Position numbers and translations under genes: made by a program. From a virus (lineage: Duplodnaviria > Heunggongvirae > Uroviricota > Caudoviricetes), in the IMG/VR virus record IMGVR_UViG_2671180821_000008, positions 1 to 23,022 of that record: a stretch of 23,022 nucleotides of DNA. One strand, given 5' to 3'. How positions within the stretch are numbered: the first letter of the stretch is position 1; each line of letters begins with the position of its first letter. Below are positions 1-23,022 of the stretch, one piece after another. Below the pieces are notes generated by a model that worked only from the letters and a program-made list of their open reading frames with translations, made no database searches and was not told the origin of the DNA.

Positions 1-504
1 TTATTGATAGTGTTTTATGTTCAGATAATGCCCGATGACTTTGTCATGCAGCTCCACCGATTTTGAGAACGACAGCGACTTCCGTCCCAGCCGTGCCAGG
101 TGCTGCCTCAGATTCAGGTTATGCCGCTCAATTCGCTGCGTATATCGCTTGCTGATTACGTGCAGCTTTCCCTTCAGGCGGGATTCATACAGCGGCCAGC
201 CATCCGTCATCCATATCACCACGTCAAAGGGTGACAGCAGGCTCATAAGACGCCCCAGCGTCGCCATAGTGCGTTCACCGAATACGTGCGCAACAACCGT
301 CTTCCGGAGACTGTCATACGCGTAAAACAGCCAGCGCTGGCGCGATTTAGCCCCGACATAGCCCCACTGTTCGTCCATTTCCGCGCAGACGATGACGTCA
401 CTGCCCGGCTGTATGCGCGAGGTTACCGACTGCGGCCTGAGTTTTTTAAGTGACGTAAAATCGTGTTGAGGCCAACGCCCATAATGCGTGCAGTTGCCCG
501 GCAT
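1..504 (-). CDS. insB: IS1 InsB reading frame (transposase catalytic part, expressed as InsAB' by -1 frameshift)
   Basis: 167-aa ORF ...[45 protein letters not shown]... typical of IS1 InsB; stop at 1-3. Confidence 0.88.
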
Positions 505-698
505 CCAACGCCATTCATGGCCATATCAATGATTTTCTGGTGCGTACCGGGTTGAGAAGAGGTGTAAGTGAACTGCAGTTGCCATGTTTTACGGCAGTGA
601 GAGCAGAGATAGCGCTGATGTCCGGCAGTGCTTTTGCCGTTACGCACCACCCCGTCAGTAGCTGAACAGGAGGGACAGCTGATAGAAACAGAAGCCAC
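423..698 (-). CDS. insA: IS1 InsA (transposition repressor / N-terminal part of InsAB')
   Basis: 91-aa ORF beginning [24 protein letters not shown]..., zinc-finger CxxC...CxxC plus HTH; recognised IS1 InsA sequence. Confidence 0.9.
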
Positions 699-768
699 TG
701 GAGCACCTCAAAAACACCATCATACACTAAATCAGTAAGTTGGCAGCATCACCTCATTCGTCTGTTCC

Positions 769-1275
769 TTAAATCTTCCAGGAAATTTCTGCATTGCCGT
801 CAGCATCACCGGCACCTGTGAATTCAGCGTTGGTCAGCACCACGTTTTTGCCACTGACTGACGTGGACATGAATCCACCCAGCGGCACTTTGATGGATTC
901 ATCAGTGGAGACGACAACGTATACCGGATCGCCTTTTTTGATAGTGCTGGCATCAAAATCAGAACCGAGATTAACGGTCACGTAGCCACGCTTCATGGCG
1001 TCGCCCGGGAAGTTCTTGCCTGTTCCCACCTGGCGAACCATGTCCGGCTGCGACGTGGTCGGATAAGGGCGCACGTAGATCCCCTTCACCTTGTCTGCGG
1101 TATCACCATCTGCCAGCGGCACGAAAAAACCGTCATCATCGTATTTACCAGCCAGGCCATAGGCAGCGAAGGCGTTATCGGATTTAAGGACCACCGGTTC
1201 GACGGTTAAGTCCTGCGGGCGAGAGACAGCCCCGGCAATGCCAACAGGCATCCGGTACAGAAATACATTATTCAT
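769..1275 (-). CDS. phage head-associated structural protein of unknown role (possible decoration/scaffold protein)
   Basis: 168-aa ORF directly downstream of the protease/scaffold-like gene in the same operon (3-nt spacing, AAGGG SD); stop lies 16 bp from the IS1 end. Function inferred from position only. Confidence 0.45.
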   Translation of the reverse strand: MNNVFLYRMPVGIAGAVSRPQDLTVEPVVLKSDNAFAAYGLAGKYDDDGFFVPLADGDTADKVKGIYVRPYPTTSQPDMVRQVGTGKNFPGDAMKRGYVTVNLGSDFDASTIKKGDPVYVVVSTDESIKVPLGGFMSTSVSGKNVVLTNAEFTGAGDADGNAEISWKI

Positions 1276-1278
1276 TTT

Positions 1279-2499
1279 TTACCCTTTACGGTTTGCCCAG
1301 AATTCAGCGTTTTGTTTGTTCAGGGAAGCGATACTGGTCATGCCCATGTTTAGGCGCTGTGCATCGCCGGTGGTGGCGCGGGTGTTTCGCCCTTTGGCAA
1401 CCTCAGACACGGCATTAAACGCCATGTCGACCGATTGTTTCGGTAATTTGCGGATATCCGCATCACCGACTATCTGGCGAACCAGCGTTTTGTCAGCAGA
1501 AGCCAGAACCTCGCGTTTGAACGCGGTCGGTTTCATCTTACGGCTCAGATCGATACCCGGAACGATAACTTCGGCACGCCAGGCTGAGTCACCAGTAATC
1601 GTGGTTTCCTCTTCATCGTCCTCGCCGTCACCGGTCGGATTATCGTCAGGCTTATTATCGTTATCGCCCGTGGCATTTCTTTCCAGCTTAGCCAGCAGGG
1701 CTTTCAGTAATGTTTTGAGGTCATCATCACTGTCGCCGGTTGGATCTCCGCCCATCTCTGGTGCTTTGTCCGGTAGTGGTTGCTGCGGGGACAGGTTGAT
1801 GTTGAGATTAACGCCCTGCGGCAAATCCCCCTCATCTCCTGTAACCGATGCGGGAGCCGACTCCACCAGTTCGTTCATGGTGTCGGCATCTCCTGTCTTG
1901 ATGGCCGCACGCATGCGGTTCCACCAGTTTTTCTTTTGATTTGCCATTGTGTCTCTGTCTCCAATTGCACAACGATTTCCGGCTCTGCCTTTAGGGACAA
2001 GAGCCACATGGTTTCCGGTAATATCGACCTGCTCGGCTTTACCTGGCTCGGTCTGCTCGTACTCCGCGTCATAGCCGCACGACACTTCGCGCAGGCCATC
2101 TTCGATAAGCTGAATGGCGCTTTCGTCTTTGACGATAAGGTCAGCCAGCATCAAATCAGACTGCTCACCCGTCCCGCGCCGGACATTCTGGAGGTGCCCG
2201 ACAGCAAGCTCTTTCCAGTTCTCGGGATTTACCAGCCGCACATTCCCGTTTTCATCTTCAGGATGCAGGATCGTGATGCTCATCCCTTCGAATGAGGCAA
2301 GCGTGGCCGGATGGAATACCTGCTCAGGAGAACGCGTGACGACTATTTCACCGAACTTATCGGGTTTCAGTTTTGGCAGGTCATCAGCACCATAGAGCTG
2401 CTTACCTGTTCGTCCTATCGGCACGTCTTTGCACAGCAACGAGCCGTCAGCCAGGCGGTATCGGGTTTCCCCGAGCCTGGTCTCAAAAAAGTATTTCAT
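1279..2499 (-). CDS. putative prohead protease / scaffolding-like protein (DUF2213-like, from memory)
   Basis: 406-aa ORF with a long acidic low-complexity linker (…DSDDDLKTLL…GDGEDDEEETT…) typical of scaffold proteins; lies between the Mu F-like head gene and a structural gene. Confidence 0.5.
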   Translation of the reverse strand: MKYFFETRLGETRYRLADGSLLCKDVPIGRTGKQLYGADDLPKLKPDKFGEIVVTRSPEQVFHPATLASFEGMSITILHPEDENGNVRLVNPENWKELAVGHLQNVRRGTGEQSDLMLADLIVKDESAIQLIEDGLREVSCGYDAEYEQTEPGKAEQVDITGNHVALVPKGRAGNRCAIGDRDTMANQKKNWWNRMRAAIKTGDADTMNELVESAPASVTGDEGDLPQGVNLNINLSPQQPLPDKAPEMGGDPTGDSDDDLKTLLKALLAKLERNATGDNDNKPDDNPTGDGEDDEEETTITGDSAWRAEVIVPGIDLSRKMKPTAFKREVLASADKTLVRQIVGDADIRKLPKQSVDMAFNAVSEVAKGRNTRATTGDAQRLNMGMTSIASLNKQNAEFWANRKG

Positions 2500-2502
2500 G
2501 GG

Positions 2503-3285
2503 TTATGCTGCCCTTTTCATTGCGAATGGAACGCGAACAAACACGATCTCTTTATAGCAGCGGCAGTTTGGCAGCTCGCCCGCGTGGCCGGTCATGCCGT
2601 CCAAAGTTGGAGGTGAATCCCAGCGGACGAATTTACCTTTCATGTGATCGTGGGAATCTCGGACATCGCCATCATCGGCTGTACGCCAAATATAACCATC
2701 CGAGCCAATAGCTATCGCTCGGGCCATATCCAGCGCGCCCGTTGCTCTTCCCAGTTCCGTTCGGGCAATCAGATCGGCCCTAGACTTAGCAACATCGCCG
2801 GTAGATGCAATCTCTTTAGCAAACTGCTCCGCCCGACCACCGGTGACAACAGCCTCTATCGCTTTGTTCTGGATGTCGTACACCCTGTCTGCGGCCTCGA
2901 GAGGCAGAGATTTGATGTACTTGACCTGTTCGGCGATGATGGATTGCATCACCTGGCCCACAGGAGCGCTTTCCACAAGATTGCGGAGCTCGCGACTGAT
3001 GTTCTTGCTGTGTTGCCGCCAAACTTTCTCGTTCTGCCGGGTTAGGTCCGCAGTAAAGTTTTCCGCGACCTTTGTCGCCCAGGGGGTGATGATTTCACTG
3101 TAACGCTCCAGCGCCGCAATAATTTCCGTGATACTGTCATTTGAACCATCGTAGCGACCATTTACGATGTCTCCGACCGCCCTCGCTATCCTGCGTAGGC
3201 TGGTTCGATACCGGATTTCCGCCTGACGGCTCCTGCGGTTCGTCATCAGGTTCGCCGATGCCGGGCGGCGCTTCATCTTCGGCAT
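2503..3285 (-). CDS. phage head morphogenesis protein (Mu F / SPP1 gp7 family)
   Basis: 260-aa ORF immediately after the portal gene; C-terminal ...DSHDHMKGKFVRWDSPP...NCRC motif region resembles Mu F-like minor head proteins. ORF start overlaps the portal 3' end by 149 nt, so the true start may be internal. Confidence 0.6.
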   Translation of the reverse strand: MPKMKRRPASANLMTNRRSRQAEIRYRTSLRRIARAVGDIVNGRYDGSNDSITEIIAALERYSEIITPWATKVAENFTADLTRQNEKVWRQHSKNISRELRNLVESAPVGQVMQSIIAEQVKYIKSLPLEAADRVYDIQNKAIEAVVTGGRAEQFAKEIASTGDVAKSRADLIARTELGRATGALDMARAIAIGSDGYIWRTADDGDVRDSHDHMKGKFVRWDSPPTLDGMTGHAGELPNCRCYKEIVFVRVPFAMKRAA

Positions 3286-4603
3286 TCTCGATGTCCTCGT
3301 CGGTAATGGATGCCCCGATGCCGGTTACGTCAGAATTTTCTCGCAAATCAGTCATAGCGGCTTTCAGTGTCATCAGACCATCACCCAGCGCCGTACTGAT
3401 TGCGTTGGTGGTGTTTAACGCCACCGTTGAGCGATCGACATCAGACATTTGCCAGAGCGGGTTAAACTCAAACGTGAAATCGTCCGGCAGCGGCTTGCCA
3501 AGTTCCGAACGATGCATGATGTCCAGTATCCGCCGCACCGGAAGACGTAAACGCCTCTCCTGCAACGAACTGATGCGATCGTAATAGTTGGCAAGGTCTG
3601 CATCACCGGTAGAAAATCCTTTCGGGGACTGTCCGAACAACCGCACCAGTGGGATACCAACAGCGCCACTAATCTGTTCTACAAACTGCGAAAGGATGTC
3701 ATCCAGACCACTGAAGCTGTACTGATGGGTTTCAAACTTATCCCGCGAGTCCATGAGCGTCATGCCTTCATTACTCTGGAACTGTCGAATCAGGTCGATA
3801 TTCTTCAGCAACGCTTCATACGCAGGACCACCAAGTGCGATAAGCTCGCGTAGCTTCTCCACGCTGTAGGTACGCAAATGCGCCTTGTAGACCAGCTGCG
3901 CCGCGCCGACAGTAGCGCTGTCGAACGCGGTAAGACGATCCCAGATACGCTCTACAACCGACATTCCCCATTCGTTCTCGGTCATCTTCTGCTGAAATGG
4001 CAACGTGACGCCATCAAAGCGAATCAGGCGACTGTGATGAATGCGCCAGGCAGGAATTCCCGTTGCTGTGGTCACCACATCGTAAAACTCAGGTTTACCC
4101 AGGTCCGGCCCCATATCTTTAATGCGGCGGGTCAGTGCCGGGTCGACCATCCAGCGGTCGAGCGGGAGAATCCCCTTAAACTTGCCCTTACCGATGGTTT
4201 CGGGTCGCAGCGGGGTCATTGGTGCCTACCCCTCAATCATGATGAAACCCACCGCGCCGCCGTAGAGGCGCGACCATTTCAGCACGTCATTCAGCGCATC
4301 CCAGATTTGCAACTCATCCAGTTGTGATTCGAGAATGCCACGATCTTTTGCATCAATTTCCGAAGTGATGCGAATGCCTTTGCGGGTCATATCATCCGGG
4401 ATAGCATCGACTGCTTCGCCGATGATCTAGGATGAACGATAGGACCATTCCACCAGCATGCGGTTACGACTGGTGAAATTAGCCCGGTAGGTGGATGCTG
4501 AGTGCTGGTTAGGTGTCTGCATCCCTACGCGGGCAATAAAATTCTCATAACCATCAGCTGTGGCCTGCACAGTTCGCCGCAGGGCTTGTTTGTTTCGTGC
4601 CAT
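3137..4603 (-). pseudogene. portal protein gene interrupted by two in-frame amber codons (intact C-terminal ORF 3137..4219)
   Basis: ATG at 4603..4601 overlaps the large-terminase stop (ATGA). The frame stays open and protein-like (MARNKQALRR...EWSYRSS * IIGEAVDAIPDDMTRKGIRITSEI...GFIMIEG * APMTPLRPE...) apart from TAG at 4429..4427 and TAG at 4228..4226; no frameshift. Position between terminase and Mu F-like gene indicates portal. Confidence 0.65.
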
Positions 4604-6114
4604 CAGGCCTGTCTCCCCAGCTGTTCCCAGATATCCAGCGATGTATCGATTGGCGCGAAGGCCATAATGAATGCATCAGCAACGTTTGGTGACGGTATCT
4701 CGCGTTTTGCGAGGTCTTTTTTACTTTCGACCATCACACGTCCGTTACGGTCGAAATCACGATGAGGTGTTGTCAGTTCCAGTTTCAGCTTTTCAAGCAA
4801 CGGACAACGAGAATCTATGCTGATCAGCTCATCCACAGGATACTGTTCTCCGTTGTTAATGGCGTTAAACGTATTTCTGAAACGGTCAGCCACCAGCCAC
4901 CATGCCTGAGCCTTAAGATTTGCGAAAAAGTCTTTGTTGGGGATGCCGTTGTACTCGTCATCTGGCTCATGCACACCAGCACCGGCGTTAAACCTCTGGT
5001 AATTCACACGTCGCGCGTATGCGTTCTCGCTCTTCCGGTCAGCGTTAATTTCAGAGAATTTAGCACCGGCAGACGCACCAACACCGATAGAGTCGTAAAC
5101 AATATCTGCTTCACGCTCCAGCGCCGCCTGATAAGTACGCTGGCAGCTCTTCAGTAATTCATCTTCTTTGGCCTTCCATTCGTCGGCCCAGAAAACAACG
5201 GATCCGTGACGGTAAACGTTAGCGCACTTATCTGTACCACTGTCAGCCACGTCAAAGCCAATACGCTTTCTTCCACTGGGTTCGAAATTTAACGTTTTGT
5301 GCGCATCCACTGCGGCTTCTATCCAAGACAGTTTGATGATTGCCGCATCATCATCAGACTCCGGAACGCCCTCATACACATGTTTAAAACCATCCGGATC
5401 ACGGCGTCGCGCCGCGTCGATAACCTTAAGCATGGTGTCAGACAGAAACGGATTTTCGTCATAGTTAATTTTGCGGATGAGAGTGCCTTCGGGCGGATCA
5501 ACAACGAAGTTGCGCCAGACGAAATCAGTAACAAGTCCGGGGTTGAATATGAACCAGCATTCCGAACCCTCTTTACGGATCGTTGGCTCCAGAATTTTCC
5601 ACTGGTATTCCGTCAGTGCGTGGGCTTCTTCCAGCCACAACACATCGATCCCCTCCAGTGACTTAATTTCTTCGATGTTGCGCCATAATCCATAAAAAAC
5701 AAATTCCGAGCCAGTAACCCGGTTAATGATTTTGTTGTTCAGAATACGGAAACGGTGCCGCAGACCAAACCTGTCTATCTGAATTTTGAGCAGGGTATAC
5801 ACCGACTCTTCGATTTTATTCTGGATCTGACGGGCACAACAAAAACGCAGGGTGTATTTATTCGACAGAAATATGGCAATGCCAGCGGCATCCCATGATT
5901 TTGACGATGACCGACCACCATAAAGCACTTTGTTACGTGCCCGCATAGTCCAGAAACTACGTAAAGCCGGATTCAGCGTCGGTTTGGATGTCAGAGTAGA
6001 AGTCATTGAGGTCACGCTCTCCATTGCCATCATCAATACCTGCATCACGGCGAAGACGATCAGCCTCCAGAGACACCTTATCAGTGGCGGCCTTGCGGTA
6101 GGCTGTATCAGCAA
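4603..6114 (-). CDS. terminase large subunit (PBSX/Terminase_3-like, headful-type)
   Basis: 503-aa ORF with ...RARNKVLYGGRSSSKSWDAAG... (deviant Walker A) and a nuclease-like C-terminal half. ORF start overlaps the small terminase gene by 158 nt; internal ATGs at 6033 (AGGT SD) or 6006 are more likely true starts. Confidence 0.85.
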   Translation of the reverse strand: MLIQPTARPPLIRCLWRLIVFAVMQVLMMAMESVTSMTSTLTSKPTLNPALRSFWTMRARNKVLYGGRSSSKSWDAAGIAIFLSNKYTLRFCCARQIQNKIEESVYTLLKIQIDRFGLRHRFRILNNKIINRVTGSEFVFYGLWRNIEEIKSLEGIDVLWLEEAHALTEYQWKILEPTIRKEGSECWFIFNPGLVTDFVWRNFVVDPPEGTLIRKINYDENPFLSDTMLKVIDAARRRDPDGFKHVYEGVPESDDDAAIIKLSWIEAAVDAHKTLNFEPSGRKRIGFDVADSGTDKCANVYRHGSVVFWADEWKAKEDELLKSCQRTYQAALEREADIVYDSIGVGASAGAKFSEINADRKSENAYARRVNYQRFNAGAGVHEPDDEYNGIPNKDFFANLKAQAWWLVADRFRNTFNAINNGEQYPVDELISIDSRCPLLEKLKLELTTPHRDFDRNGRVMVESKKDLAKREIPSPNVADAFIMAFAPIDTSLDIWEQLGRQA

Positions 6115-6721
6115 ATATTTTTCCTACCGTCGCAAGCGTGCCAACGATGGACTCAATACGAACTGTATTGCGCATCATTGCTTTCTCGGCGGCGCTGATA
6201 TTTTCAATCAGCATCTTCCTTTCCTGGTCCCCATTAGCATCTTCCAGCGACACCAACCACCGACCAATATTCTCTGCAGCGACAAGGTTGTTAGCACGAA
6301 GGCGAAATAATTCGTCCTCGAGCGTCAACGCTTTAGCGTCCTCTATCACCTCATCTTTGAGCAGAAGGCGACGGGCATAACCACCGTGTTTTAATGCCTG
6401 CTGGTTACCGGGTTGGAATGGGTTAGTCGGGGGATCGGTACGCATTCCGCGTATCGGTTTCGTATCCGGTGTAGATTCTGTTTTTAGTTGCGTACTTTTT
6501 TGTGTAAGGCCAGTAATGGCAGGCTTTCTGCTGGTACGCACTTTCCTTTTTTGCGTACCATTTTTGCAAACCTGCGTACCGCCACTGCGTGCCCAACCAA
6601 GCTTTTTGGCCCTCTTCCTGATAGCCCCTTCTGTAACGCCGTATTTCTCGCCTATATCACGGAGGCTAAGGACTCCGGCCCGGTATGCCGATTCGATGGC
6701 CTCCCAGTCCGGTTTTGCCAT
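5957..6721 (-). CDS. terminase small subunit
   Basis: 254-aa ORF directly upstream of the large terminase; N-terminal HTH-like segment (LSLRDIGEKYGVTEGAIRKRAKKLGW) and basic region; TAG stop. Confidence 0.6.
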   Translation of the reverse strand: MAKPDWEAIESAYRAGVLSLRDIGEKYGVTEGAIRKRAKKLGWARSGGTQVCKNGTQKRKVRTSRKPAITGLTQKSTQLKTESTPDTKPIRGMRTDPPTNPFQPGNQQALKHGGYARRLLLKDEVIEDAKALTLEDELFRLRANNLVAAENIGRWLVSLEDANGDQERKMLIENISAAEKAMMRNTVRIESIVGTLATVGKIFADTAYRKAATDKVSLEADRLRRDAGIDDGNGERDLNDFYSDIQTDAESGFT

Positions 6722-6918
6722 GATTATGCTTCCTGTGATTTACTGTTATCGCTGCCTGTCACAATAGGTTGCTTTAATTCTTCCTCATCACTCACTCCTG
6801 CGACGCTCCGTGGCAGGGCCCCCCACAGGAGTACCTTGTAAATGTAAGGTGTTTAAGCCTAAATTAAGTCGTATCACGGTTAAATAGCAAAGAAAAATTC
6901 ACAGAAGGAAAGACATTG

Positions 6919-7428
6919 ATGGAGTGGATAAATGCTTTGATGAACTATTTTGTACTTCATCCATATCGCCTATGGGGGCTTCTTTTTATAATAGCGTTCA
7001 CAAAATCCACTTTACTCATTTCGGCGATATTGCCACCAGCATCAATTATGATGGCCACTGTAATTACAGTCAGCAAGACGACTCTTTCACCATGGGAAGC
7101 TGGAATCACGGTCATGAGTGGCGCATGGTGCGGTACTATCGTTAATTACCATCTTGGTATAATAATTGGGCATATCCCTCAACTTGCATGTATAATATCA
7201 AGCCGTTCCAATACAATAGAACGGGTTCGCCTTCAGTTGCAAAATAACTCTGTGTCAATACTTTTCACTTCGCGCTTTATCGCCGTGCTGCGTTATATTG
7301 CTCCTTTGGTGGCAGGAATGTTGCAACTTCATCCAGTGAAAGTGTATACAGTGAGTCTGATTTCAGCTGCTAGCTGGTCAGCACTTTATGTTGGTAGTTT
7401 TAGCTTCGTGTTGCCTTTTTTTAGCTAA
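6919..7428 (+). CDS. YqaA/DedA-superfamily-like inner membrane protein (phage moron)
   Basis: About 169 aa, multi-pass hydrophobic; motifs ...SGAWCGTIVNYHLGIIIGH... and ...FTSRFIAVLRYIAPLVAGMLQL... follow the pattern I recall for E. coli YqaA. GAAGGAAAG SD 8 nt before ATG 6919. Opposite strand to the flanking phage genes, in a visibly AT-rich segment. Confidence 0.5.
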   Translation: MEWINALMNYFVLHPYRLWGLLFIIAFTKSTLLISAILPPASIMMATVITVSKTTLSPWEAGITVMSGAWCGTIVNYHLGIIIGHIPQLACIISSRSNTIERVRLQLQNNSVSILFTSRFIAVLRYIAPLVAGMLQLHPVKVYTVSLISAASWSALYVGSFSFVLPFFS

Positions 7429-7516
7429 ACTGCCCATAAAAAGCTCTTGCGAATCCAGCTTCCCCCATTCCTCTGACAACAGAATCTGATTTGAAGGATA
7501 ATGAGTAAAATTACCG

Positions 7517-7987
7517 CTACCCCCCAAGGCATTGGATCCTGATGTACTCCTGAAGCATTCTCAATGCTGTCTGGTCGCTGATGATTCCGTCCCGGATACC
7601 GAGAACGTTTCGTCCAGCAACTGGAGAGAGTTCGACGGTGGCATCATTGCCCATGCCGGAGGCGCTGGAGGTTTCGGCTGAGGATGGCACAGGGCATTTT
7701 CCTTTGACGAGCACCCGACCACCATTATCAAGCTTGCGCCGAAGAGCATCATTTTCAGCTTTCGCATCAGCTAACTCCTTCGTGTATTTAGCATCGAGTG
7801 CATCAGCATCACGCTGGCGCTGCTGCATGTCAGTAATGGTTGCGTTCGCCAGCTTCAGTTCTCTTGCGTTTTTGTCGCGCTGCTCTTTGTAGGTAATGGC
7901 GTTATCACGGTAATGATTAACAGCCCATGACAGGCGGACGATGATGCAGATAACCAGAGCGGAGATAATCGCGGTGACTCTGCTCAT
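7517..7987 (-). CDS. Rz: Rz i-spanin
   Basis: [49 protein letters not shown]... closely matches lambda Rz N-terminus; ATG overlaps the endolysin stop (ATGA). Confidence 0.85.
7561..7767 (-). CDS. Rz1: Rz1 o-spanin lipoprotein, embedded in the +1 frame of Rz
   Basis: [21 protein letters not shown]... with lipobox VVGC and proline-rich segment [11 protein letters not shown], like lambda Rz1. Confidence 0.75.
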
Positions 7988-8481
7988 TGCTGCCCCCACA
8001 AACAGACTTCACGCTCAATCTCACGACGGGTCATCAGCCCTTTCCATTGCTTACCGCCAGCATATGTCCAGCGACATAGCTGGTCACATGCGCCTTTGAT
8101 ATAGCCCTGGTTTATTTTGCGAAGAAGCGTCGATGTTCTGAAATTGCCAGCGCCCACGTTGTAAACGAACGAGTAAAGAGCGCCGCGCGTTGTTTCCGGT
8201 ATATCGACTTTGATGTACGGGTTAATTTGTCTGGCGACAGTGGCAAGGTCTTTATTCAGGAGAGCTTTGCATTCTGCTTCGGTATACGTTTTACCAGGCA
8301 TGATGTCTTTTCCGGTGTGTCCGTGACATACAGTCCATACACCAATGATATCTTTGTATAGTATGTAGCTGACACCTTCCAGACCATCGTTACCACCTGG
8401 GCCAGTGATTAACACAGATGCTATAGCAACAGCCCCGCCACCAATAGCAACTGCAACAGCCTTGCGTAATGATGGCGACAT
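7984..8481 (-). CDS. R: SAR endolysin (phage 21 R-type lysozyme)
   Basis: 165-aa [42 protein letters not shown]... with N-terminal signal-anchor-release segment and lysozyme core; near-identical to phage 21 R as recalled. Confidence 0.9.
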
Positions 8482-8594
8482 TATTCACCTCTCGCAGCCT
8501 TACTAGACTGGCCCCCTGAATCTCCAGACAACCAGTATCACTTAAATAAGTGATAGTCTTAATACTAGTTTTTAGACTAGTCATTGGAGTACAG

Positions 8595-8960
8595 ATGATT
8601 GATGTCTTAGGGCCGGAGAAACGCAGACGGCGTACCACACAGGAAAAGATCGCAATTGTTCAGCAGAGCTTTGAACCGGGGATGACGGTCTCCCTCGTTG
8701 CCCGGCAACATGGTGTAGCAGCCAGCCAGTTATTTCTCTGGCGTAAGCAATACCAGGAAGGAAGTCTTACTGCTGTGGCCGCCGGAGAACAGGTTGTTCC
8801 TGCCTCTGAACTTGCTGCCGCCATGAAGCAGATTAAAGAACTCCAGCGCCTGCTCGGCAAGAAAACGATGGAAAATGAACTCCTCAAAGAAGCCGTTGAA
8901 TATGGACGGGCAAAAAAGTGGATAGCGCACGCGCCCTTATTGCCCGGGGATGGGGAGTAA
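8595..8960 (+). CDS. insC: IS2 OrfA (InsC)
   Basis: [56 protein letters not shown]...; recognised IS2 InsC. Confidence 0.88.
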
Positions 8961-9823
8961 GCTTAGTCAGCCGTTGTCTCCGGGTGTCGCGTGCGCAGTT
9001 GCACGTCATTCTCAGACGAACCGATGACTGGATGGATGGCCGCCGCAGTCGTCACACTGATGATACGGATGTGCTTCTCCGTATACACCATGTTATCGGA
9101 GAGCTGCCCACGTATGGTTATCGTCGGGTATGGGCGCTGCTTCGCAGACAGGCAGAACTTGATGGTATGCCTGCGATCAATGCCAAACGTGTTTACCGGA
9201 TCATGCGCCAGAATGCGCTGTTGCTTGAGCGAAAACCTGCTGTACCGCCATCGAAACGGGCACATACAGGCAGAGTGGCCGTGAAAGAAAGCAATCAGCG
9301 ATGGTGCTCTGACGGGTTCGAGTTCTGCTGTGATAACGGAGAGAGACTGCGTGTCACGTTCGCGCTGGACTGCTGTGATCGTGAGGCACTGCACTGGGCG
9401 GTGACTACCGGCGGCTTCAACAGTGAAACAGTACAGGACGTCATGCTGGGAGCGGTGGAACGCCGCTTCGGCAACGATCTTCCGTCGTCTCCAGTGGAGT
9501 GGCTGACGGATAATGGTTCATGCTACCGGGCTAATGAAACACGCCAGTTCGCCCGGATGTTGGGACTTGAACCGAAGAACACGGCGGTGCGGAGTCCGGA
9601 GAGTAACGGAATAGCAGAGAGCTTCGTGAAAACGATAAAGCGTGACTACATCAGTATCATGCCCAAACCAGACGGGTTAACGGCAGCAAAGAACCTTGCA
9701 GAGGCGTTCGAGCATTATAACGAATGGCATCCGCATAGTGCGCTGGGTTATCGCTCGCCACGGGAATATCTGCGGCAGCGGGCTTGTAATGGGTTAAGTG
9801 ATAACAGATGTCTGGAAATATAG
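8918..9823 (+). CDS. insD: IS2 OrfB (InsD) transposase catalytic domain
   Basis: 301-aa ORF with DDE-type integrase fold (…WCSDGFEF…DNGSCY…) overlapping insC in the -1 frame. Confidence 0.88.
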
Positions 9824-9834
9824 GGGCAAATCCA

Positions 9835-18845: not shown

Positions 18846-19202
18846 ATGGAAATAAAACCAGAAGATGAGTTAAGCAATATCGTTTTATTTCCGGTAAAAG
18901 AGGATGACCCTCGTAATCAGGTTAATTTTCTTTATGAGCCATCGGAAAGACCATATTGCCATCACGCCTCTGTACGGGTTGACGAAAAAGAGCGTCAGGT
19001 CCGCTGTAAAATCTGCGGTGCGGTTGTGGAGCCGTTTGACTGGATGCTCTCTGTGGCAAAAAGAGAAACCAGACTGGCAGATGATGTAAGGCTATTGCGC
19101 CAGGAGGAACAGGAAAGGCGGAGAAATATAGAAAAGCTGATACAGATTGAGCGTAACGCGAAAGCGCGGATACGCAGGGCGACAAAATCCAGAACTGAAT
19201 AA
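18846..19202 (+). CDS. hypothetical phage protein with zinc-ribbon-like motif and basic coiled-coil tail
   Basis: AAGGAGAGG SD before ATG 18846 (the ORF frame is open from 18789); C-HH...C-KIC cysteine/histidine cluster; C-terminal RLLRQEEQERRRNIEKLIQIERNAKARIRR. Confidence 0.45.
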   Translation: MEIKPEDELSNIVLFPVKEDDPRNQVNFLYEPSERPYCHHASVRVDEKERQVRCKICGAVVEPFDWMLSVAKRETRLADDVRLLRQEEQERRRNIEKLIQIERNAKARIRRATKSRTE

Positions 19203-19349
19203 TTAAATTTAGCACTGTTAAAAATTTAATCCTTAACCGGAGGGATTTCTGCACCCTCAAATCATCAGGAGACCACCCGAAAGGGCGGGGAGCAGTCACA
19301 CATCTGTTTCCGATAGCCCCGTTCTAATGCTACACTCTTTGATATTTTT

Positions 19350-20036
19350 ATGACCCCAATAAACATATTTATGACAGTTGCTGATTTCAAACGGCCCAAA
19401 TTGGAGCTCCCAAACGGGGCAAACAAACTACTACTGCACTCTTGCTGTGCTCCATGTTCCGGTGAGGTGATGGAGGCGCTTCAGGCCTCGGGAATCGACT
19501 ACACCATCTTTTTCTACAACCCGAACATTCATCCTCAGAAAGAGTATTTAATTCGTAAGGATGAGAATATTCGCTTTGCTGAACAACACGGCGTGCCGTT
19601 TATTGATGCTGATTACGACACAGACAACTGGTTTGAACGAGCCAAAGGAATGGAATGGGAGCCCGAACGAGGGATCCGTTGCACCATGTGTTTTGACATG
19701 CGTTTTGAGCGGACAGCGCTGTACGCCGCTGAAAATGGTTTCAGTGTGATCAGCAGTTCACTGGGCATTTCACGCTGGAAAAATATGCAGCAGGTTAACG
19801 ACTGTGGGCGGCGAGCCGTCGCGCATTATCCGGGCATGGTGTACTGGGATTATAACTGGCGCAAGCAGGGCGGCTCGTCCCGTATGATTGAAATCAGCAA
19901 GCGCGAAAAATTCTATCAGCAGGAATATTGTGGCTGTGTGTATTCTCTGCGCGATACCAATCTACACCGCAAATCTCAGGGACGCCCTCTTATCAAAATT
20001 GGTCAACTCCACTACGGTAAAGAAGAGAAGGAGTGA
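19350..20036 (+). CDS. queH: QueH-like epoxyqueuosine reductase (DUF208 family)
   Basis: Motifs [40 protein letters not shown] and C-terminal EYCGCVYS match the QueH/DUF208 signature as I recall it; start codon uncertain (19350 or 19371). Confidence 0.6.
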
Positions 20037-20221
20037 TTTTATGGGGCACCTTTCTGATTGATTTCATATTGGCGAGGTAAGTAGAATGACTGCGGGTGCT
20101 TGAGGCTATCTGCTTCAGGCATGAACACCAAAAGGCAGATAGAGAAAAGCCCCAGTTAACATTACGCGTCCGGCAAGACGCTTAACATTAATCTGAGGCC
20201 AATTTCATGCTTTGCACATGT

Positions 20222-20250
20222 AGGTTAGCCTCTTACATGCCGAAAGGCAA
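20222..20250 (-). promoter_or_regulatory. candidate antisense (sok-like) promoter opposite the hok leader
   Basis: On the minus strand: -35 TTGCCT (20250..20245), 17-nt spacer, -10 TAACCT (20227..20222); its transcript would cover the upstream in-frame ATG at 20207. Confidence 0.3.
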
Positions 20251-20263
20251 GGAGAAGCAGGCT

Positions 20264-20419
20264 ATGAAGCAGCAAAAGGCGATGTTAATCGCCCTGATCG
20301 TCATCTGTTTAACCGTCATAGTGACGGCACTGGTAACGAGGAAAGACCTCTGTGAGGTACGAATCCGAACCGGCCAGACGGAGGTCGCTGTCTTCGTAGA
20401 CTACGAATCCAGGAAGTAA
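20264..20419 (+). CDS. hokD: Hok/Gef-family membrane toxin (HokD/RelF-like)
   Basis: 51 aa MKQQKAMLIALIVICLTVIVTALVTRKDLCEVRIRTGQTEVAVF..., near-identical to HokD as recalled; AGGAGA SD. Confidence 0.85.
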   Translation: MKQQKAMLIALIVICLTVIVTALVTRKDLCEVRIRTGQTEVAVFVDYESRK

Positions 20420-20496
20420 GAGTGACCGGGCGGGGAGCTGATCCCATCCCCGCCCACCTCTGATGTGTCAGGCATCCTCAACGCACCCGCACTTAA

Positions 20497-20539
20497 CCCG
20501 CCCATCGCTGTGATCTCTCAGCGTTTCGGCGGGTTTTTT
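20497..20539 (+). terminator. rho-independent terminator downstream of hok
   Basis: Stem CCCGCC (20497-20502) / GGCGGG (20528-20533) with inner GCTG/CAGC helix, followed by TTTTTT (20534-20539). Confidence 0.5.
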
Positions 20540-20559
20540 GTTGTTTATTTCCGGTGAAT

Positions 20560-20587
20560 TTGATTCGCGCACCTTCGCAGATAGAAT
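20560..20587 (+). promoter_or_regulatory. candidate sigma70 promoter (TTGATT, 16-bp spacer, TAGAAT)
   Basis: Near-consensus hexamers at 20560-20565 and 20582-20587, upstream of a 14-codon uORF and the 95-aa ORF. Confidence 0.4.
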
Positions 20588-20668
20588 CGACTCACTTAAG
20601 TAGCGCGCAGGGAGAAGAGGGATGGACCCCGAACAGGGGAGAGCTATTTATCTGGAAGGATTCTGAAG

Positions 20669-20956
20669 ATGAAAATCGAAGAATTGCGTGAAATTTTTAG
20701 TGAAAATGGCCTCTATGCTGTGCGCGTTGAGAATGGAGCGATTGTCAGCCATTGCCGCATTAGATGTTTGCAATCTCAACAAAGGAAGAGCGGTGCTGTG
20801 TTATTTTATTTTTGTAATGGACTTCTGACGGACGGTTTTATTTTGCGTGAGGACGAATTTGTCACATCATTACGGGTTTTGAAAGAGATTGGTTTTAAGG
20901 CTGGTTTTCTGCTTTTGCTGAAGAATAAACTCATCTACAATCTTGAGCAGGATTGA
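20669..20956 (+). CDS. hypothetical protein (position corresponds to rem of Qin-like prophages)
   Basis: 95-aa ORF with GGAAGGA SD; preceded by uORF 20622-20666 (MDPEQGRAIYLEGF) ending 2 nt before its ATG; no recognisable motif. Confidence 0.4.
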   Translation: MKIEELREIFSENGLYAVRVENGAIVSHCRIRCLQSQQRKSGAVLFYFCNGLLTDGFILREDEFVTSLRVLKEIGFKAGFLLLLKNKLIYNLEQD

Positions 20957-20994
20957 ACTCCTGCTGTGTAACACCGTGCCACCGGAGAAAGCCG

Positions 20995-21301
20995 ATGGCA
21001 CATATACAACTGGTCAAACAAACCTCTTCCGGATTACTTCTCCCGGCGACGCCGGAGAGTTGCGATTTTCTGCATCAAATCAAAATAGGTGAGTGGATAC
21101 ACGCAGACTTTAAGCGTGTGTGTAACTACGCATTCCACAAGCGTTTTTTCAAACTCCTGCAACTGGGTTTCGATTACTGGACTCCGGTCGGTGGGGCGAT
21201 CACGCCTCGCGAACGAAAACTGGTGTCCGGTTTCGTTGATTACCTGTGTGAATCAGTAGGCCGGGAACATACGCCAGCTCTGAGCGAAGCCGCAGAGCAA
21301 T
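20995..21301 (+). pseudogene. hypothetical nin-region protein, 3' end truncated by IS600
   Basis: GGAGAAAG SD before ATG 20995; MAHIQLVKQTSSGLLLPATPESCDFLHQIKIGEWIHADFKRVCNYAFHKRFF...; reading frame runs straight into the IS600 end at 21302. Confidence 0.45.
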
Positions 21302-21344
21302 TGAGGTGTACTGGCAATAGCGGACACTACCATTTGTTCTTTTT

Positions 21345-22163
21345 TTAAGCAGCCATCTGATGATATTTTTCCCTGAAGGCTGCCGGGGAGATATTCCCCA
21401 GACGAGAGTGACGACGCTGACGATTGTAGAAAATCTCAATGTATTCCCGTATTACTGAGATGGCTTCATCCCGGTTATTAAAACGATAGTGGCTCAGGCT
21501 CTCATTTTTCAGCGTTCCCCAGAAGCTTTCCATCGGAGCGTTGTCGTAACAGTTACCTTTACGCGACATTGATGTTTTCAGACCAGACTGCTCCTGTATG
21601 ACCCGGTAATCGTATGCGCAGTACTGTGAACCTCGATCAGAGTGGTGGATTAGCCCGGCAGGTGGGCGCTGGCTCCTGAGCGCCATAAACAGGGCTTTAC
21701 CTGTCAGCTCTTTTGTCATGCGCTCTCCCATGGCGTAGCCGACAATTTCGCACGTATAAACATCTTTGATGCCAGCGAGGTACAACCATCCCTCCTGTGT
21801 GGCAACATACGTCAGGTCCGCCACCCAGACCTGATTTGGTGCTGTAGGAGCGAACGTCTGGTTCAGCAGATTTGGCGCAACTGGCAGATTGTGGTTCGAG
21901 TTCGTAGTCGCTCTGAACTTGCGTTTCTGCTTACAGCGTAGCCTTAGCTCCTTACGAAGACGTGCCAGTCGGTCACGACCAACGATGATGCCATTCTCTG
22001 CCAGCTCCGTCTGGAGCCGCCGGGTTCCATATGTTTCGCGAGTGCGGATATGTGCCACCTTAATCTCCAGTTTTAGCCGCTCATCACTTTGTTTTCTGTC
22101 TGAGGGTTCATGCTGTACCCAGTTGTAATAACCGCTCCTGGATACACCAAATACCTGACACAT
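21345..22163 (-). CDS. insK: IS600 OrfB (DDE transposase domain)
   Basis: 272-aa ORF identical in translation to the 15701-16519 copy. Confidence 0.88.
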   Translation of the reverse strand: MCQVFGVSRSGYYNWVQHEPSDRKQSDERLKLEIKVAHIRTRETYGTRRLQTELAENGIIVGRDRLARLRKELRLRCKQKRKFRATTNSNHNLPVAPNLLNQTFAPTAPNQVWVADLTYVATQEGWLYLAGIKDVYTCEIVGYAMGERMTKELTGKALFMALRSQRPPAGLIHHSDRGSQYCAYDYRVIQEQSGLKTSMSRKGNCYDNAPMESFWGTLKNESLSHYRFNNRDEAISVIREYIEIFYNRQRRHSRLGNISPAAFREKYHQMAA

Positions 22164-22198
22164 CGCTTCAATGGGAAATTGTTGTCGCCATTGTTCGA

Positions 22199-22501
22199 TT
22201 AACGCGTATTTTTCAGCGACTCCTGTGCAAAATACGCTGTTGCTTTTTTTAATATATCTCGCTCAAGGCGAGCTTCATTTAACGCCTTACGCAGTTGCAG
22301 AATTTCAGATTCCAGTTCAGCCACCGTGCGGGAACCAGGAGTACCGAGCCCTTTTCTGGCGGCGGTAACCCATTGTCCTAAAGTGCCTTCAGGAAGAGAT
22401 AATCGGGAAGCGCCTTCACTGATCGAAAGTTGATTTTCAGGAACCGTTCTGACAGCTTCGGCTTTGAACTCTTTAGAGTAACGTTGGGTTTTTCTGCTCA
22501 T
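22199..22501 (-). CDS. insJ: IS600 OrfA (L20P variant)
   Basis: 100-aa ORF MSRKTQRYSKEFKAEAVRTVPENQLS... Confidence 0.88.
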   Translation of the reverse strand: MSRKTQRYSKEFKAEAVRTVPENQLSISEGASRLSLPEGTLGQWVTAARKGLGTPGSRTVAELESEILQLRKALNEARLERDILKKATAYFAQESLKNTR

Positions 22502-22566
22502 TATTAGCTCCTTCTGATGCCATTCTATTTCAGGAAGGAGTGTCCGTTAAACTCAGGCTACCTCAG

Positions 22567-23022
22567 TTCGGCCTTTGCATGGATCTTGCACTGGTAACAG
22601 GACAGCGCGAAGGAGATCTGGCGGCTATGAGATGGGAGGATATAAGAGATGGCAGGCTATACGTGGAACAACAAAAAACAGGGGCAAAAATTCGCATTTC
22701 TCTCCCCACCACGATTTCCAGATTGAATTTAACACTTGCCGATGTACTGGATAACTTGAAAAAAATAAACGGTAAAAACGAAAAGTTACTCGGAGGGAAG
22801 ACAGCCAGGACAATCGCAGCACAGTTCAGGATTGCCCGAGACACATCCGGATTGAAATGGGAAGGTGACCCACCGCCATTTCATGAAATCCGAAGTTTAT
22901 CCGGTCGCCTGCACTCAGCAGAAAAAGGCGGTGATTTCACTCAGGCGCTCCTTGGACATCGTTCATCCAGCATGACGGATAAATACCGTGACGGACGAGG
23001 GAGGGAATGGAAAGACATTTAA
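22567..23022 (+). pseudogene. int: lambda-type tyrosine integrase, C-terminal catalytic fragment only
   Basis: ...LALVTGQREGDL...LYVEQQKTGAKIRI...GDPPPFHEIRSLSGRL...LLGHRSSSMTDKYRDGRGREWKDI-stop parallels the lambda Int C-terminus (R-H-R-H-Y catalytic positions present); N-terminal two thirds absent, frame enters from the IS600 end. Confidence 0.8.

What the first reader, a model, noticed from the sequence alone, without database searches (positions are those of the whole stretch)
3137..4603. Portal gene is intact in frame but carries two amber (TAG) codons
Seen in sequence: the portal frame starts at ATG 4603 (ATGA overlap with the terminase stop) and stays in one frame for about 488 codons, interrupted only by TAG at 4429..4427 and 4228..4226. 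Protein-like sequence continues on both sides of each TAG, with no indels. Inference: either two recent nonsense mutations in a decaying prophage, or a gene readable only in an amber-suppressing host. Two stops of the same type in one otherwise clean gene are unusual for random decay.
Basis: partly seen in the sequence, partly recalled or inferred. Interest (0 to 1): 0.45.

Follow-up and report, generated by a model that had tools for sequence, protein, structure and literature searches.

The report
Dead portal gene in Shigella prophage
The two amber stops are real, but they are ordinary knock-out point mutations in the portal gene of a wrecked, IS-riddled prophage remnant that Shigella sonnei genomes carry, not a sign of stop-codon suppression.

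Summary
The minus-strand frame 4603..3137 is a 488-codon phage portal gene (Pfam Phage_portal_3, E = 5.8e-104). Its only interruptions are TAG at 4429..4427 (codon 59) and TAG at 4228..4226 (codon 126).

Every intact homolog examined has TGG (Trp) and CAG (Gln) at those codons. The closest homolog (99.8% identical) differs in this gene by only these two bases plus one missense change (A308V). All three changes are G:C>A:T transitions derived in the window's lineage.

The same sequence is present in all nine in-register complete Shigella sonnei-type chromosomes examined. The exact truncated ORF is indexed in 2,576 blocks of public assemblies, so this is not a read error.

The surrounding prophage cannot make particles:
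- An IS1 replaces the major-capsid and tail genes.
- An IS2 splits the holin gene.
- The early region is inverted between IS600 copies.
- The integrase gene is truncated.
- The tRNA block is missing.

"Both amber" is not unusual. In this gene, 57% of stop-creating G:C>A:T changes give TAG. W59* also lies exactly on a Dcm (CCTGG) 5-methylcytosine deamination site, the classic amber hotspot.

Nothing supports suppression. Related prophages carry no tRNA with a CUA anticodon, TAG ends genuine genes in the same operon, and no other gene carries an in-frame TAG.

Verdict: an ordinary pseudogene of low interest.

The parts
3137..4603 (-). Portal pseudogene: 488 codons plus TGA, Phage_portal_3 / TIGR01555 family, interrupted by two TAG codons.
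   Evidence: PF06381, 5.8e-104. (TIGR01555, 1.1e-75, for the intact ortholog). (solved portals: Pam3 8hds 2.2e-37, E217 gp19 1.1e-14).
4427..4429 (-). Amber codon 59. The ancestral codon is TGG (Trp), changed by G>A at window 4428. It lies within the former Dcm site CCTGG (now CCTAG, window 4431..4427), and the mutated G pairs with the methylated C of the other strand.
   Evidence: All outgroups (L001-L004, L025, L026) have the ancestral base.
4226..4228 (-). Amber codon 126. The ancestral codon is CAG (Gln), changed by C>T at window 4228. The context GGGGCAGGC is not a Dcm site.
3680..3682 (-). Codon 308 GTA (Val). The ancestral codon is GCA (Ala), changed by C>T at 3681. This is the third and last lineage-specific change in the gene.
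3137..4219 (-). The 360-aa residual ORF that gene callers report, annotated 'putative bacteriophage protein [Shigella sonnei]' (Q3Z426_SHISS).
4603..6006 (-). Terminase large subunit gene (PBSX family), in frame and without indels. Its TGA shares one base with the portal ATG.
   Evidence: annotation of the 99.8% relative; collinear block with 0 gaps; PF04466.
769..3246 (-). Remaining head genes downstream of the portal: Mu-F-like head morphogenesis (2503..3246), DUF2213/Pa193_gp24 (1279..2499) and cement protein Gp24 (769..1275).
1..753 (.). IS1 copy abutting the cement-protein gene. In complete chromosomes identical to this window it is followed directly by chromosomal genes of the lactonase, LysR, aconitase and pectinesterase families, so the major-capsid and all tail genes are gone.
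   Evidence: L011 is 100% identical to window 1..14219.
8504..9834 (.). IS2 (1331 bp) inserted in the holin gene, flanked by a 5-bp target duplication CTTAC.
10043..11492 (.). IS110-family element (transposase 10270..11466) inserted just upstream of the holin gene.
   Evidence: (PF01548/PF02371).
13986..21301 (+). Prophage early region (cI/cro-like, ydaT, ydaV, DUF977, QueH, hokD, part of DUF1367). It is inverted relative to the late genes and split by IS600 (15658..16921).
21302..23022 (.). A second full IS600 (21302..22565) abutting only the 3' part of the integrase gene (22566..23022).

Best explanation
The portal gene of a cryptic myovirus-type prophage of Shigella sonnei was inactivated by two independent G:C>A:T point mutations: TGG>TAG at codon 59 and CAG>TAG at codon 126. 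The prophage sits at the ybhA / pgl region. It is now a neutral pseudogene inside a remnant that cannot make particles. Translation should stop at codon 59, and no full-length portal is made. The first mutation most likely arose by deamination of 5-methylcytosine at a Dcm site (CCTGG>CCTAG). The second is an ordinary C>T transition in the commonest Gln codon. What is shown: the identity of the gene, the ancestral codons, the derived polarity, presence in every S. sonnei chromosome examined, and the loss of other essential phage functions. What is inferred: the deamination mechanism, the absence of expression, and the neutrality of the changes.
For: 1. Gene identity: Pfam Phage_portal_3 at 5.8e-104 spans both stops. 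The intact ortholog matches TIGR01555 and solved portal proteins. The gene sits between terL and the Mu-F head-morphogenesis gene.
2. Ancestral codons: six intact relatives all have TGG and CAG. They are E. coli FDAARGOS_944, FDAARGOS_943, VL40, A34 and PEC148, and phage vB_EcoM-606R2. The nearest differs in this gene by only 3 of 1467 bases, all G:C>A:T and all derived in the window.
3. Spread: nine complete chromosomes have an identical frame. They include HE616528 (S. sonnei 53G, lineage II) and CP019689 (S. sonnei 75/02, lineage IIIc). The exact ORF is indexed in 2,576 blocks of assemblies and is named as an S. sonnei protein.
4. The remnant is dead: IS1 replaces the capsid and tail genes, IS2 splits the holin gene, an IS110-family element and three IS600 copies or fragments are present, the early region is inverted, the integrase gene is truncated, and there are no tRNAs.
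5. Relaxed constraint: the five securely or probably window-derived substitutions in the 7.75-kb late block all change the protein. They are the three in the portal plus lysozyme D127Y and R136C.
6. Amber bias: 28 of the 49 stop-creating G:C>A:T sites in this gene give TAG. W59* falls on one of only two Dcm positions that can create a stop. Dcm methylates the second C of CCWGG, and these sites are deamination hotspots (PMC3527292). Shigella carries dcm and methylates these sites (PMC12215381).
7. Independent decay elsewhere: the same prophage family is broken in other ways in other strains. These are IS2 in terL and an internal stop in the head-morphogenesis gene in FDAARGOS_943, a frameshift in FDAARGOS_944, and an IS1 truncation of the portal in S. 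dysenteriae Sd197.
Against: Two nonsense changes among so few lineage-specific substitutions is a mild excess: P(>=2 of 3 in the gene) is 0.004-0.008, and P(>=2 of 15 in the block) is 0.10-0.18. The rest of the 7.75-kb late block has no indel and no other stop, so point-mutation decay is very shallow. Only one of the two ambers is at a Dcm site. No expression data are available, the host genome could not be scanned for suppressor tRNAs, and dcm activity in S. sonnei itself was not tested.
Confidence: 0.93

Rival explanations
1. The portal is still functional because the host, or the phage, supplies an amber-suppressor tRNA, so TAG 59 and TAG 126 are read as amino acids. This would be a natural conditional-lethal amber phage.
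For: Both stops are of one type. The frame is otherwise clean, with a single extra missense change. From my own knowledge, natural coliforms carrying amber suppressors have been reported (Marshall & Levy, Nature 1980); this was not checked here.
Against: The window has no tRNA. The tRNA blocks of three related prophages have anticodons CAT, TCT, TGT and TCC or TAC, and none has CTA. TAG is the genuine stop of 3 of 35 annotated genes in the intact relative, including Rz and the gene just before terL. All intact homologs have sense codons at these positions. A restored portal would have nothing to assemble with, because the major-capsid and tail genes are deleted and the holin gene is split. A same-type pair is expected about 40% of the time anyway.
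Confidence: 0.02
2. The two TAGs are sequencing or assembly errors, or a laboratory-made amber mutant.
For: No evidence found here supports this reading.
Against: The same 1467-nt frame occurs in nine complete chromosomes from different projects. The exact product is indexed in 2,576 blocks of assemblies, including at least 1000 contigs named S. sonnei.
Confidence: 0.01
3. Portal inactivation was favoured by selection rather than being neutral decay, for example to stop abortive packaging or particle release while other prophage genes were kept. This would explain two hits in one gene while its neighbours stay intact.
For: There is a mild excess of nonsense changes in this one gene. The other late genes in the 7.75-kb block are free of stops and indels. 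Portal or packaging genes are also hit independently in related prophages: IS2 in terL of FDAARGOS_943, a 7-bp deletion in terL in several Logan contigs, and IS1 in the portal of Sd197.
Against: One knock-out is enough, so selection does not explain a second stop. The excess is weak and was noticed after the fact. One site is a known mutational hotspot. Lesions in the relatives hit many different genes. IS-mediated deletion removed far more than the portal.
Confidence: 0.04

Closest known systems
Cryptic, defective prophages of E. coli K-12 and Shigella (Rac, Qin, DLP12, e14) and IS-driven pseudogene formation in Shigella
   Same: This is a resident prophage at a fixed chromosomal site that is losing morphogenesis genes through IS insertion, IS-mediated deletion and inversion, and point mutations. 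The remaining ORFs are annotated as 'putative bacteriophage protein'. The window shows all of these features.
   Different: Nothing essential differs. This remnant is a lambdoid-early / E217- or Pam3-like-late mosaic at the ybhA / pgl region, not one of the named K-12 elements.
Amber hotspots at Dcm sites in lacI (Coulondre, Miller, Farabaugh & Gilbert 1978; cited from my own knowledge)
   Same: The change CCTGG>CCTAG is at the base paired with the 5-methylcytosine and creates TAG, which is exactly the hotspot chemistry (Dcm and VSP background in PMC3527292).
   Different: Only W59* fits this pattern. Q126* (GGCAGG) is not at a Dcm site. The hotspot origin is inferred from sequence context and was not measured.
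Laboratory amber mutants of phage morphogenesis genes (lambda, P22 or T4 'am' alleles grown on supE or supF hosts)
   Same: These also carry in-frame TAGs in an essential head gene whose frame is otherwise intact.
   Different: The mutations here are natural and present in every examined S. sonnei chromosome. There is no sign of a suppressor, and the rest of the phage is deleted, so there is no conditional phenotype to rescue.
Stop-codon-recoded phages (for example crAss-like or Lak phages that read TAG as Gln and carry suppressor tRNAs)
   Same: The only similarity is the presence of in-frame TAG in a late structural gene.
   Different: Recoded phages have many in-frame TAGs across the late genes, avoid TAG as a terminator and encode a suppressor tRNA. 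Here only one gene is affected, homologs have TGG and CAG, TAG terminates genuine genes, and there is no CUA tRNA.

Membership tests
Phage portal protein (Pfam PF06381 Phage_portal_3 / TIGR01555 HI1409 family) | Profile HMM score above the curated cut-off | tested here: met
   PF06381 scores 348 bits against a cut-off of 33.8, covering residues 55-402 of the stop-masked product. TIGR01555 scores 255 bits against a cut-off of 196 for the intact ortholog.
Phage portal protein (Pfam PF06381 Phage_portal_3 / TIGR01555 HI1409 family) | Sequence similarity to experimentally solved portal proteins | tested here: met
   Pam3 portal 8hds at 2.2e-37, 9jlf at 8.8e-23 and E217 gp19 8fvh at 1.1e-14.
Phage portal protein (Pfam PF06381 Phage_portal_3 / TIGR01555 HI1409 family) | Gene order: immediately after the large terminase gene and before the head-morphogenesis and scaffold or capsid genes | tested here: met
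   terL 4603..6006, portal 3137..4603, Mu-F-like gene 2503..3246.
Phage portal protein (Pfam PF06381 Phage_portal_3 / TIGR01555 HI1409 family) | An uninterrupted reading frame giving a full-length protein | tested here: not met
   There are two in-frame TAGs, so this is a pseudogene of the family and not a functional member.
Nonsense pseudogene in a degraded prophage | Intact orthologs have sense codons at the stop positions, and the stop is the derived state | tested here: met
   TGG and CAG in six relatives, including outgroups at 96-98% identity.
Nonsense pseudogene in a degraded prophage | Other functions essential for phage production are also lost | tested here: met
   Capsid and tail genes are replaced by IS1 followed by chromosomal genes, the holin gene is split by IS2, the integrase gene is truncated, and the early region is inverted.
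Nonsense pseudogene in a degraded prophage | The lesion is stably inherited in the host lineage and is not an assembly error | tested here: met
   Present in 9 of 9 in-register complete chromosomes and in 2,576 index blocks. The chromosomes include S. sonnei lineages II and III.
Amber-suppression-dependent or TAG-recoded phage gene | A suppressor tRNA (anticodon CUA) in the phage or the host | tested here: not met
   The window has no tRNA, and the tRNA blocks of three relatives have no CTA anticodon. The rest of the host genome could not be scanned with these tools.
Amber-suppression-dependent or TAG-recoded phage gene | TAG avoided as a genuine terminator, with in-frame TAGs recurring across genes and conserved in homologs | tested here: not met
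   Three of 35 CDS in the intact relative end in TAG. Only the portal has in-frame TAGs within the 7.75-kb block. Homologs have sense codons at both positions.
Dcm (5-methylcytosine) deamination hotspot mutation | CCWGG context, with the change at the second C or at the G paired with it | tested here: met
   Met for W59*, where ancestral CCTGG became CCTAG. Not met for Q126*, whose context is GGCAGG.
Dcm (5-methylcytosine) deamination hotspot mutation | An active Dcm methyltransferase in the host lineage | not tested
   This is documented for S. flexneri (PMC12215381) and for E. coli (PMC3527292). It was not checked for S. sonnei here.

The most novel reading that the evidence does not exclude
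The most novel reading not excluded is that portal or packaging knock-outs in this prophage family are recurrent and favoured in Shigella and enteroinvasive E. coli lineages. Under this reading, the Dcm-site amber W59* arises repeatedly, and the mixed haplotypes seen in short contigs reflect real recombination or parallel mutation rather than assembly chimeras.
Probability: 0.05. Interest if true: 0.35.

Novelty: already known. Interest (0 to 1): 0.08.

Why it matters
It matters little. This is a textbook example of prophage decay in Shigella, where IS expansion does most of the damage and a few G:C>A:T point mutations do the rest. Its only practical use is for annotation. The three ORFs of 58, 54 and 360 aa, deposited as separate 'putative bacteriophage proteins', should be merged into one portal pseudogene. 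It also illustrates that a same-type pair of stops is not evidence for suppression in E. coli or Shigella, because codon usage (CAG, TGG) and Dcm hotspots bias nonsense mutations towards amber.

Tried and rejected
1. Order of the three mutations from exact-sequence look-ups of hypothetical intermediates. Contigs with W59* only, Q126* only, both stops with A308, and an intact gene with V308 all exist, making 7 of the 8 possible haplotypes. Every one is a mosaic of just two parental haplotypes. X is the S. sonnei type (4529C, *, *, V, 2351G, 2210A). Y is an intact type (4529A, W, Q, A, 2351T, 2210T). Three of these contigs also share the same contig boundary and the same 7-bp terL deletion. I therefore treat them as recombinants, or as bubble-popped chimeras of two co-resident copies, and do not use them to order the events.

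2. A shared amber in S. dysenteriae Sd197. This was rejected. Sd197 has CAG at codon 126, and its portal is cut by IS1 at about nt 307 at a different chromosomal site. The identical 360-aa ORF length is only a gene-caller start choice.

3. My first count of '15 window-specific substitutions'. Outgroups corrected it: three of them (6263, 5725, 1292) are derived on the relatives' side, and most of the lysis-region differences cannot be polarised.

4. My first attempt to polarise position 1292 by coordinate arithmetic was out of register. It was redone by BLAST mapping.

5. I considered a genome contigs or metagenome scan for supE- or supF-type tRNA alleles but did not run it. S. sonnei is unlikely to be a species representative in that collection, so the scan would not settle the question.

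Full report
**1. The observation**

Reading window 4603..3137 on the minus strand gives 488 codons and a terminal TGA. There are exactly two internal stops, both TAG: codon 59 at 4429..4427 and codon 126 at 4228..4226. The mechanical ORF list breaks the frame into 58 aa, 54 aa and 360 aa, the last starting at ATG 4219.

With the stops masked, the product matches Pfam Phage_portal_3 (PF06381) at E = 5.8e-104 over residues 55-402. Both stops therefore lie inside the portal domain. The intact ortholog also matches TIGR01555 and solved portal proteins: Pam3 8hds at 2.2e-37 and E217 gp19 at 1.1e-14.

This is not an ATGA overlap (annotation).

**2. What the TAGs were**

The gene has 382 matching E. 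coli genomes and 7 matching phage records. The closest are FDAARGOS_943, FDAARGOS_944 and VL40 at 99.8% identity, and they are annotated with an intact 488-aa protein, WP_000113499.1.

A base-by-base comparison shows only three differences in 1467 nt:
- G>A, making TGG(W)>TAG at codon 59.
- C>T, making CAG(Q)>TAG at codon 126.
- C>T, making GCA(A)>GTA(V) at codon 308.

More distant intact copies also have TGG, CAG and GCA. These are E. coli A34, PEC148 and phage vB_EcoM-606R2, at 96-98% identity. All three changes are therefore derived in the window's lineage. There are no indels.

**3. Where the window comes from, and how widespread the stops are**

The exact 360-aa ORF is indexed in 2,576 blocks of public assemblies. 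Its source names are 'putative bacteriophage protein [Shigella sonnei]' and Q3Z426_SHISS, on at least 1000 contigs.

Ten complete chromosomes were fetched. Nine are in register and have a 1467-nt frame identical to the window, with both TAGs and V308. The tenth has a 1-base offset upstream. CP022457 and CP019689 are 100% identical to window 1..14219. HE616528 is S. sonnei 53G (lineage II) and CP019689 is S. sonnei 75/02 (lineage IIIc) (PMC5447701).

The stops are therefore real and present in every S. sonnei chromosome examined. They are not read errors.

**4. The context is a dead prophage**

Compared with the same prophage in FDAARGOS_943, FDAARGOS_944 and VL40, the window shows the following. 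In FDAARGOS_943 the prophage lies next to ybhA/modC.

| Window coordinates | Content |
|---|---|
| 1..753 | IS1 |
| 754..8503 | Late block, cement protein to holin; 0 gaps and 16 mismatches against FDAARGOS_944 |
| 8504..9834 | IS2 with a CTTAC target duplication, splitting the holin gene |
| 10043..11492 | IS110-family element |
| 13274..13985 | IS600 fragment |
| 15658..16921 and 21302..22565 | Two full IS600 copies |
| 13986..21301 | Early region, inverted relative to the late genes |
| 22566..23022 | Only the 3' part of the integrase gene |

The relatives' tRNA block is absent, and the window has no tRNA gene.

In all ten complete chromosomes, the IS1 next to the cement-protein gene is followed directly by chromosomal genes of the lactonase, LysR, aconitase and pectinesterase families. 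The major-capsid gene and every tail gene are deleted. Even a repaired portal would have nothing to assemble with.

**5. Mutation pattern**

The late block differs from the FDAARGOS_944 / VL40 pair at 15 positions. Outgroups show the following:
- Three of them (6263, 5725, 1292) are derived on the relatives' side.
- The three portal changes are derived in the window.
- Two lysozyme changes (D127Y at 8103 and R136C at 8076) are window-specific even against a closely related Logan contig.

All five window-side changes alter the protein, and four of the five are G:C>A:T. This is consistent with unconstrained decay under the usual mutational bias, but the numbers are too small for a formal test.

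**6. Is 'two ambers' surprising?**

I enumerated every single-base change in the ancestral gene.

| Mutation model | Share of stop-creating changes giving TAG | P(both amber) | P(same type) |
|---|---|---|---|
| Uniform rates | 50% | 0.25 | 0.38-0.40 |
| E. coli-like or observed spectrum | about 54% | 0.29 | 0.38-0.40 |

Among G:C>A:T changes alone, 28 of the 49 stop-creating sites give TAG: 17 by CAG>TAG and 11 by TGG>TAG.

The ancestral context of codon 59 is TCC TGG, which is CCTGG, a Dcm site. The mutated G pairs with the methylated cytosine, so CCTGG>CCTAG is the signature of 5-methylcytosine deamination. The gene has only three CCWGG sites, and only two positions in them can create a stop. 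Both of those give TAG.

Dcm specificity and the hotspot behaviour are described in PMC3527292. Dcm methylation in Shigella is described in PMC12215381. The lacI amber hotspots (Coulondre et al. 1978) are cited from my own knowledge. Q126* is not at a Dcm site.

What is mildly unusual is two nonsense hits among so few substitutions: P is about 0.004-0.008 for 2 of 3 in the gene, and 0.10-0.18 for 2 of 15 in the block. This was noticed after the fact, in a genome rich in pseudogenes, and one of the sites is a hotspot.

**7. The suppression hypothesis**

- The window has no tRNA.
- The tRNA blocks of three related prophages carry anticodons CAT, TCT, TGT and TCC or TAC, never CTA.
- TAG is the genuine terminator of 3 of 35 annotated genes in the intact relative, including Rz and the gene just upstream of terL.
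- No other gene in the block has an in-frame stop.
- Homologs have sense codons at both positions.

I could not scan the rest of the host genome, so suppression is not formally excluded. It explains nothing that decay does not, and the missing capsid and tail genes make it irrelevant.

**8. Related loci**

The same phage family decays independently elsewhere:
- FDAARGOS_943 has IS2 in terL and an internal stop in the head-morphogenesis gene.
- FDAARGOS_944 has a frameshifted head-tail gene.
- S. dysenteriae Sd197 carries another remnant at a different site, with its portal cut by IS1 at about nt 307 and CAG intact at codon 126.

Exact look-ups of hypothetical intermediates found nearly every allele combination in short Logan contigs. 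All of them are mosaics of two parental haplotypes, so recombination or assembly chimerism is enough to explain them. I draw no firm conclusion about the order of events. The one exception is that a 360-aa ORF with ancestral A308 is recorded on a 184-kb contig of S. dysenteriae 155-74, which suggests the codon-126 stop is older than A308V.

**9. Verdict**

This is a real but ordinary feature: a portal pseudogene made by two transition mutations in a heavily degraded S. sonnei prophage. It is already present in public annotation as split 'bacteriophage protein' ORFs. Interest is low.

Noticed in passing
window 1..753 and 754..1275; L005-L014 13450..15637: An IS1 abuts the cement-protein gene at the position where relatives have the start of the major-capsid gene. 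In complete S. sonnei chromosomes it is followed by pgl-like and ybhD-like chromosomal genes. This is an IS1-mediated deletion of the whole capsid and tail module.
   Followed up: yes
window 8499..9839: IS2 (1331 bp) is inserted in the class II holin gene with a 5-bp target duplication CTTAC. The holin 5' part (9835..10032) is left fused into IS2 sequence.
   Followed up: yes
window 13986..22565: The prophage early region is inverted relative to the late genes and bracketed by IS600 copies. S. sonnei 53G (L008) keeps the collinear hok-Rem-DUF1367-YbcO-Q arrangement upstream of the holin gene, so the rearrangement and the loss of the Q and tRNA region are specific to a sublineage within S. sonnei.
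   Followed up: partly
window 7717..7936 (Rz / lysis gene): Five differences from FDAARGOS_944 and VL40 cluster within 220 bp. Four are non-synonymous and three are A:T>G:C. They are shared with Logan contig L023 and partly with FDAARGOS_943. This looks like an imported allele or recombination patch rather than new mutations.
   Followed up: partly
window 8076 and 8103 (rrrD lysozyme): Two window-specific missense changes, R136C and D127Y, are absent even from the closest Logan relative. They may be further decay of the lysis cassette.
   Followed up: partly
window 6916..7428 (+ strand): A DedA / VTT-domain membrane-protein gene sits on the opposite strand between the lysis cassette and the terminase genes. 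It looks like a moron, and it is conserved in all relatives.
   Followed up: no
L015 7211..9083 (S. dysenteriae Sd197, CP000034): This is an independent remnant of the same phage family at a different chromosomal site. The portal is truncated by IS1 at about nt 307, the DUF2213 and cement-protein genes are split, and the major-capsid gene is still present. Gene callers give the same 360-aa ORF length as in S. sonnei for an unrelated reason.
   Followed up: yes
L018-L024 (Logan contigs ERR6005182, ERR6006227, SRR1184664, SRR1185284, SRR17313989, SRR1185302, ERR6005742): Seven of the eight possible haplotypes at portal codons 59, 126 and 308 occur, together with a 7-bp terL deletion (window 4896..4902) or a 17-bp deletion in the cement-protein gene (912..928). 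All are mosaics of two parental haplotypes. Whether they are real recombinants or chimeric assemblies of two copies is unresolved.
   Followed up: partly
L025 (FDAARGOS_943) 11805..16644; L001 (FDAARGOS_944) 17421..17974: The closest 'intact-portal' relatives are themselves defective in other genes: IS2 in terL, an internal stop in the head-morphogenesis gene, and a frameshifted head-tail gene. The same prophage is decaying along different paths in sister lineages.
   Followed up: partly
cluster members (for example P0019, P0030, P0064): NCBI names several partial N-terminal fragments of this DUF1073 / portal family 'anti-CBASS protein Acb1 family protein', yet the full-length protein scores as a portal (Pfam, TIGR01555, solved portals). 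This is probably an annotation-rule artefact.
   Followed up: no
window 3137..3246: RefSeq relatives annotate a 110-nt overlap between the portal 3' end and the Mu-F-like head-morphogenesis gene. Other annotations start that gene about 200 nt later. The true start is unclear.
   Followed up: no
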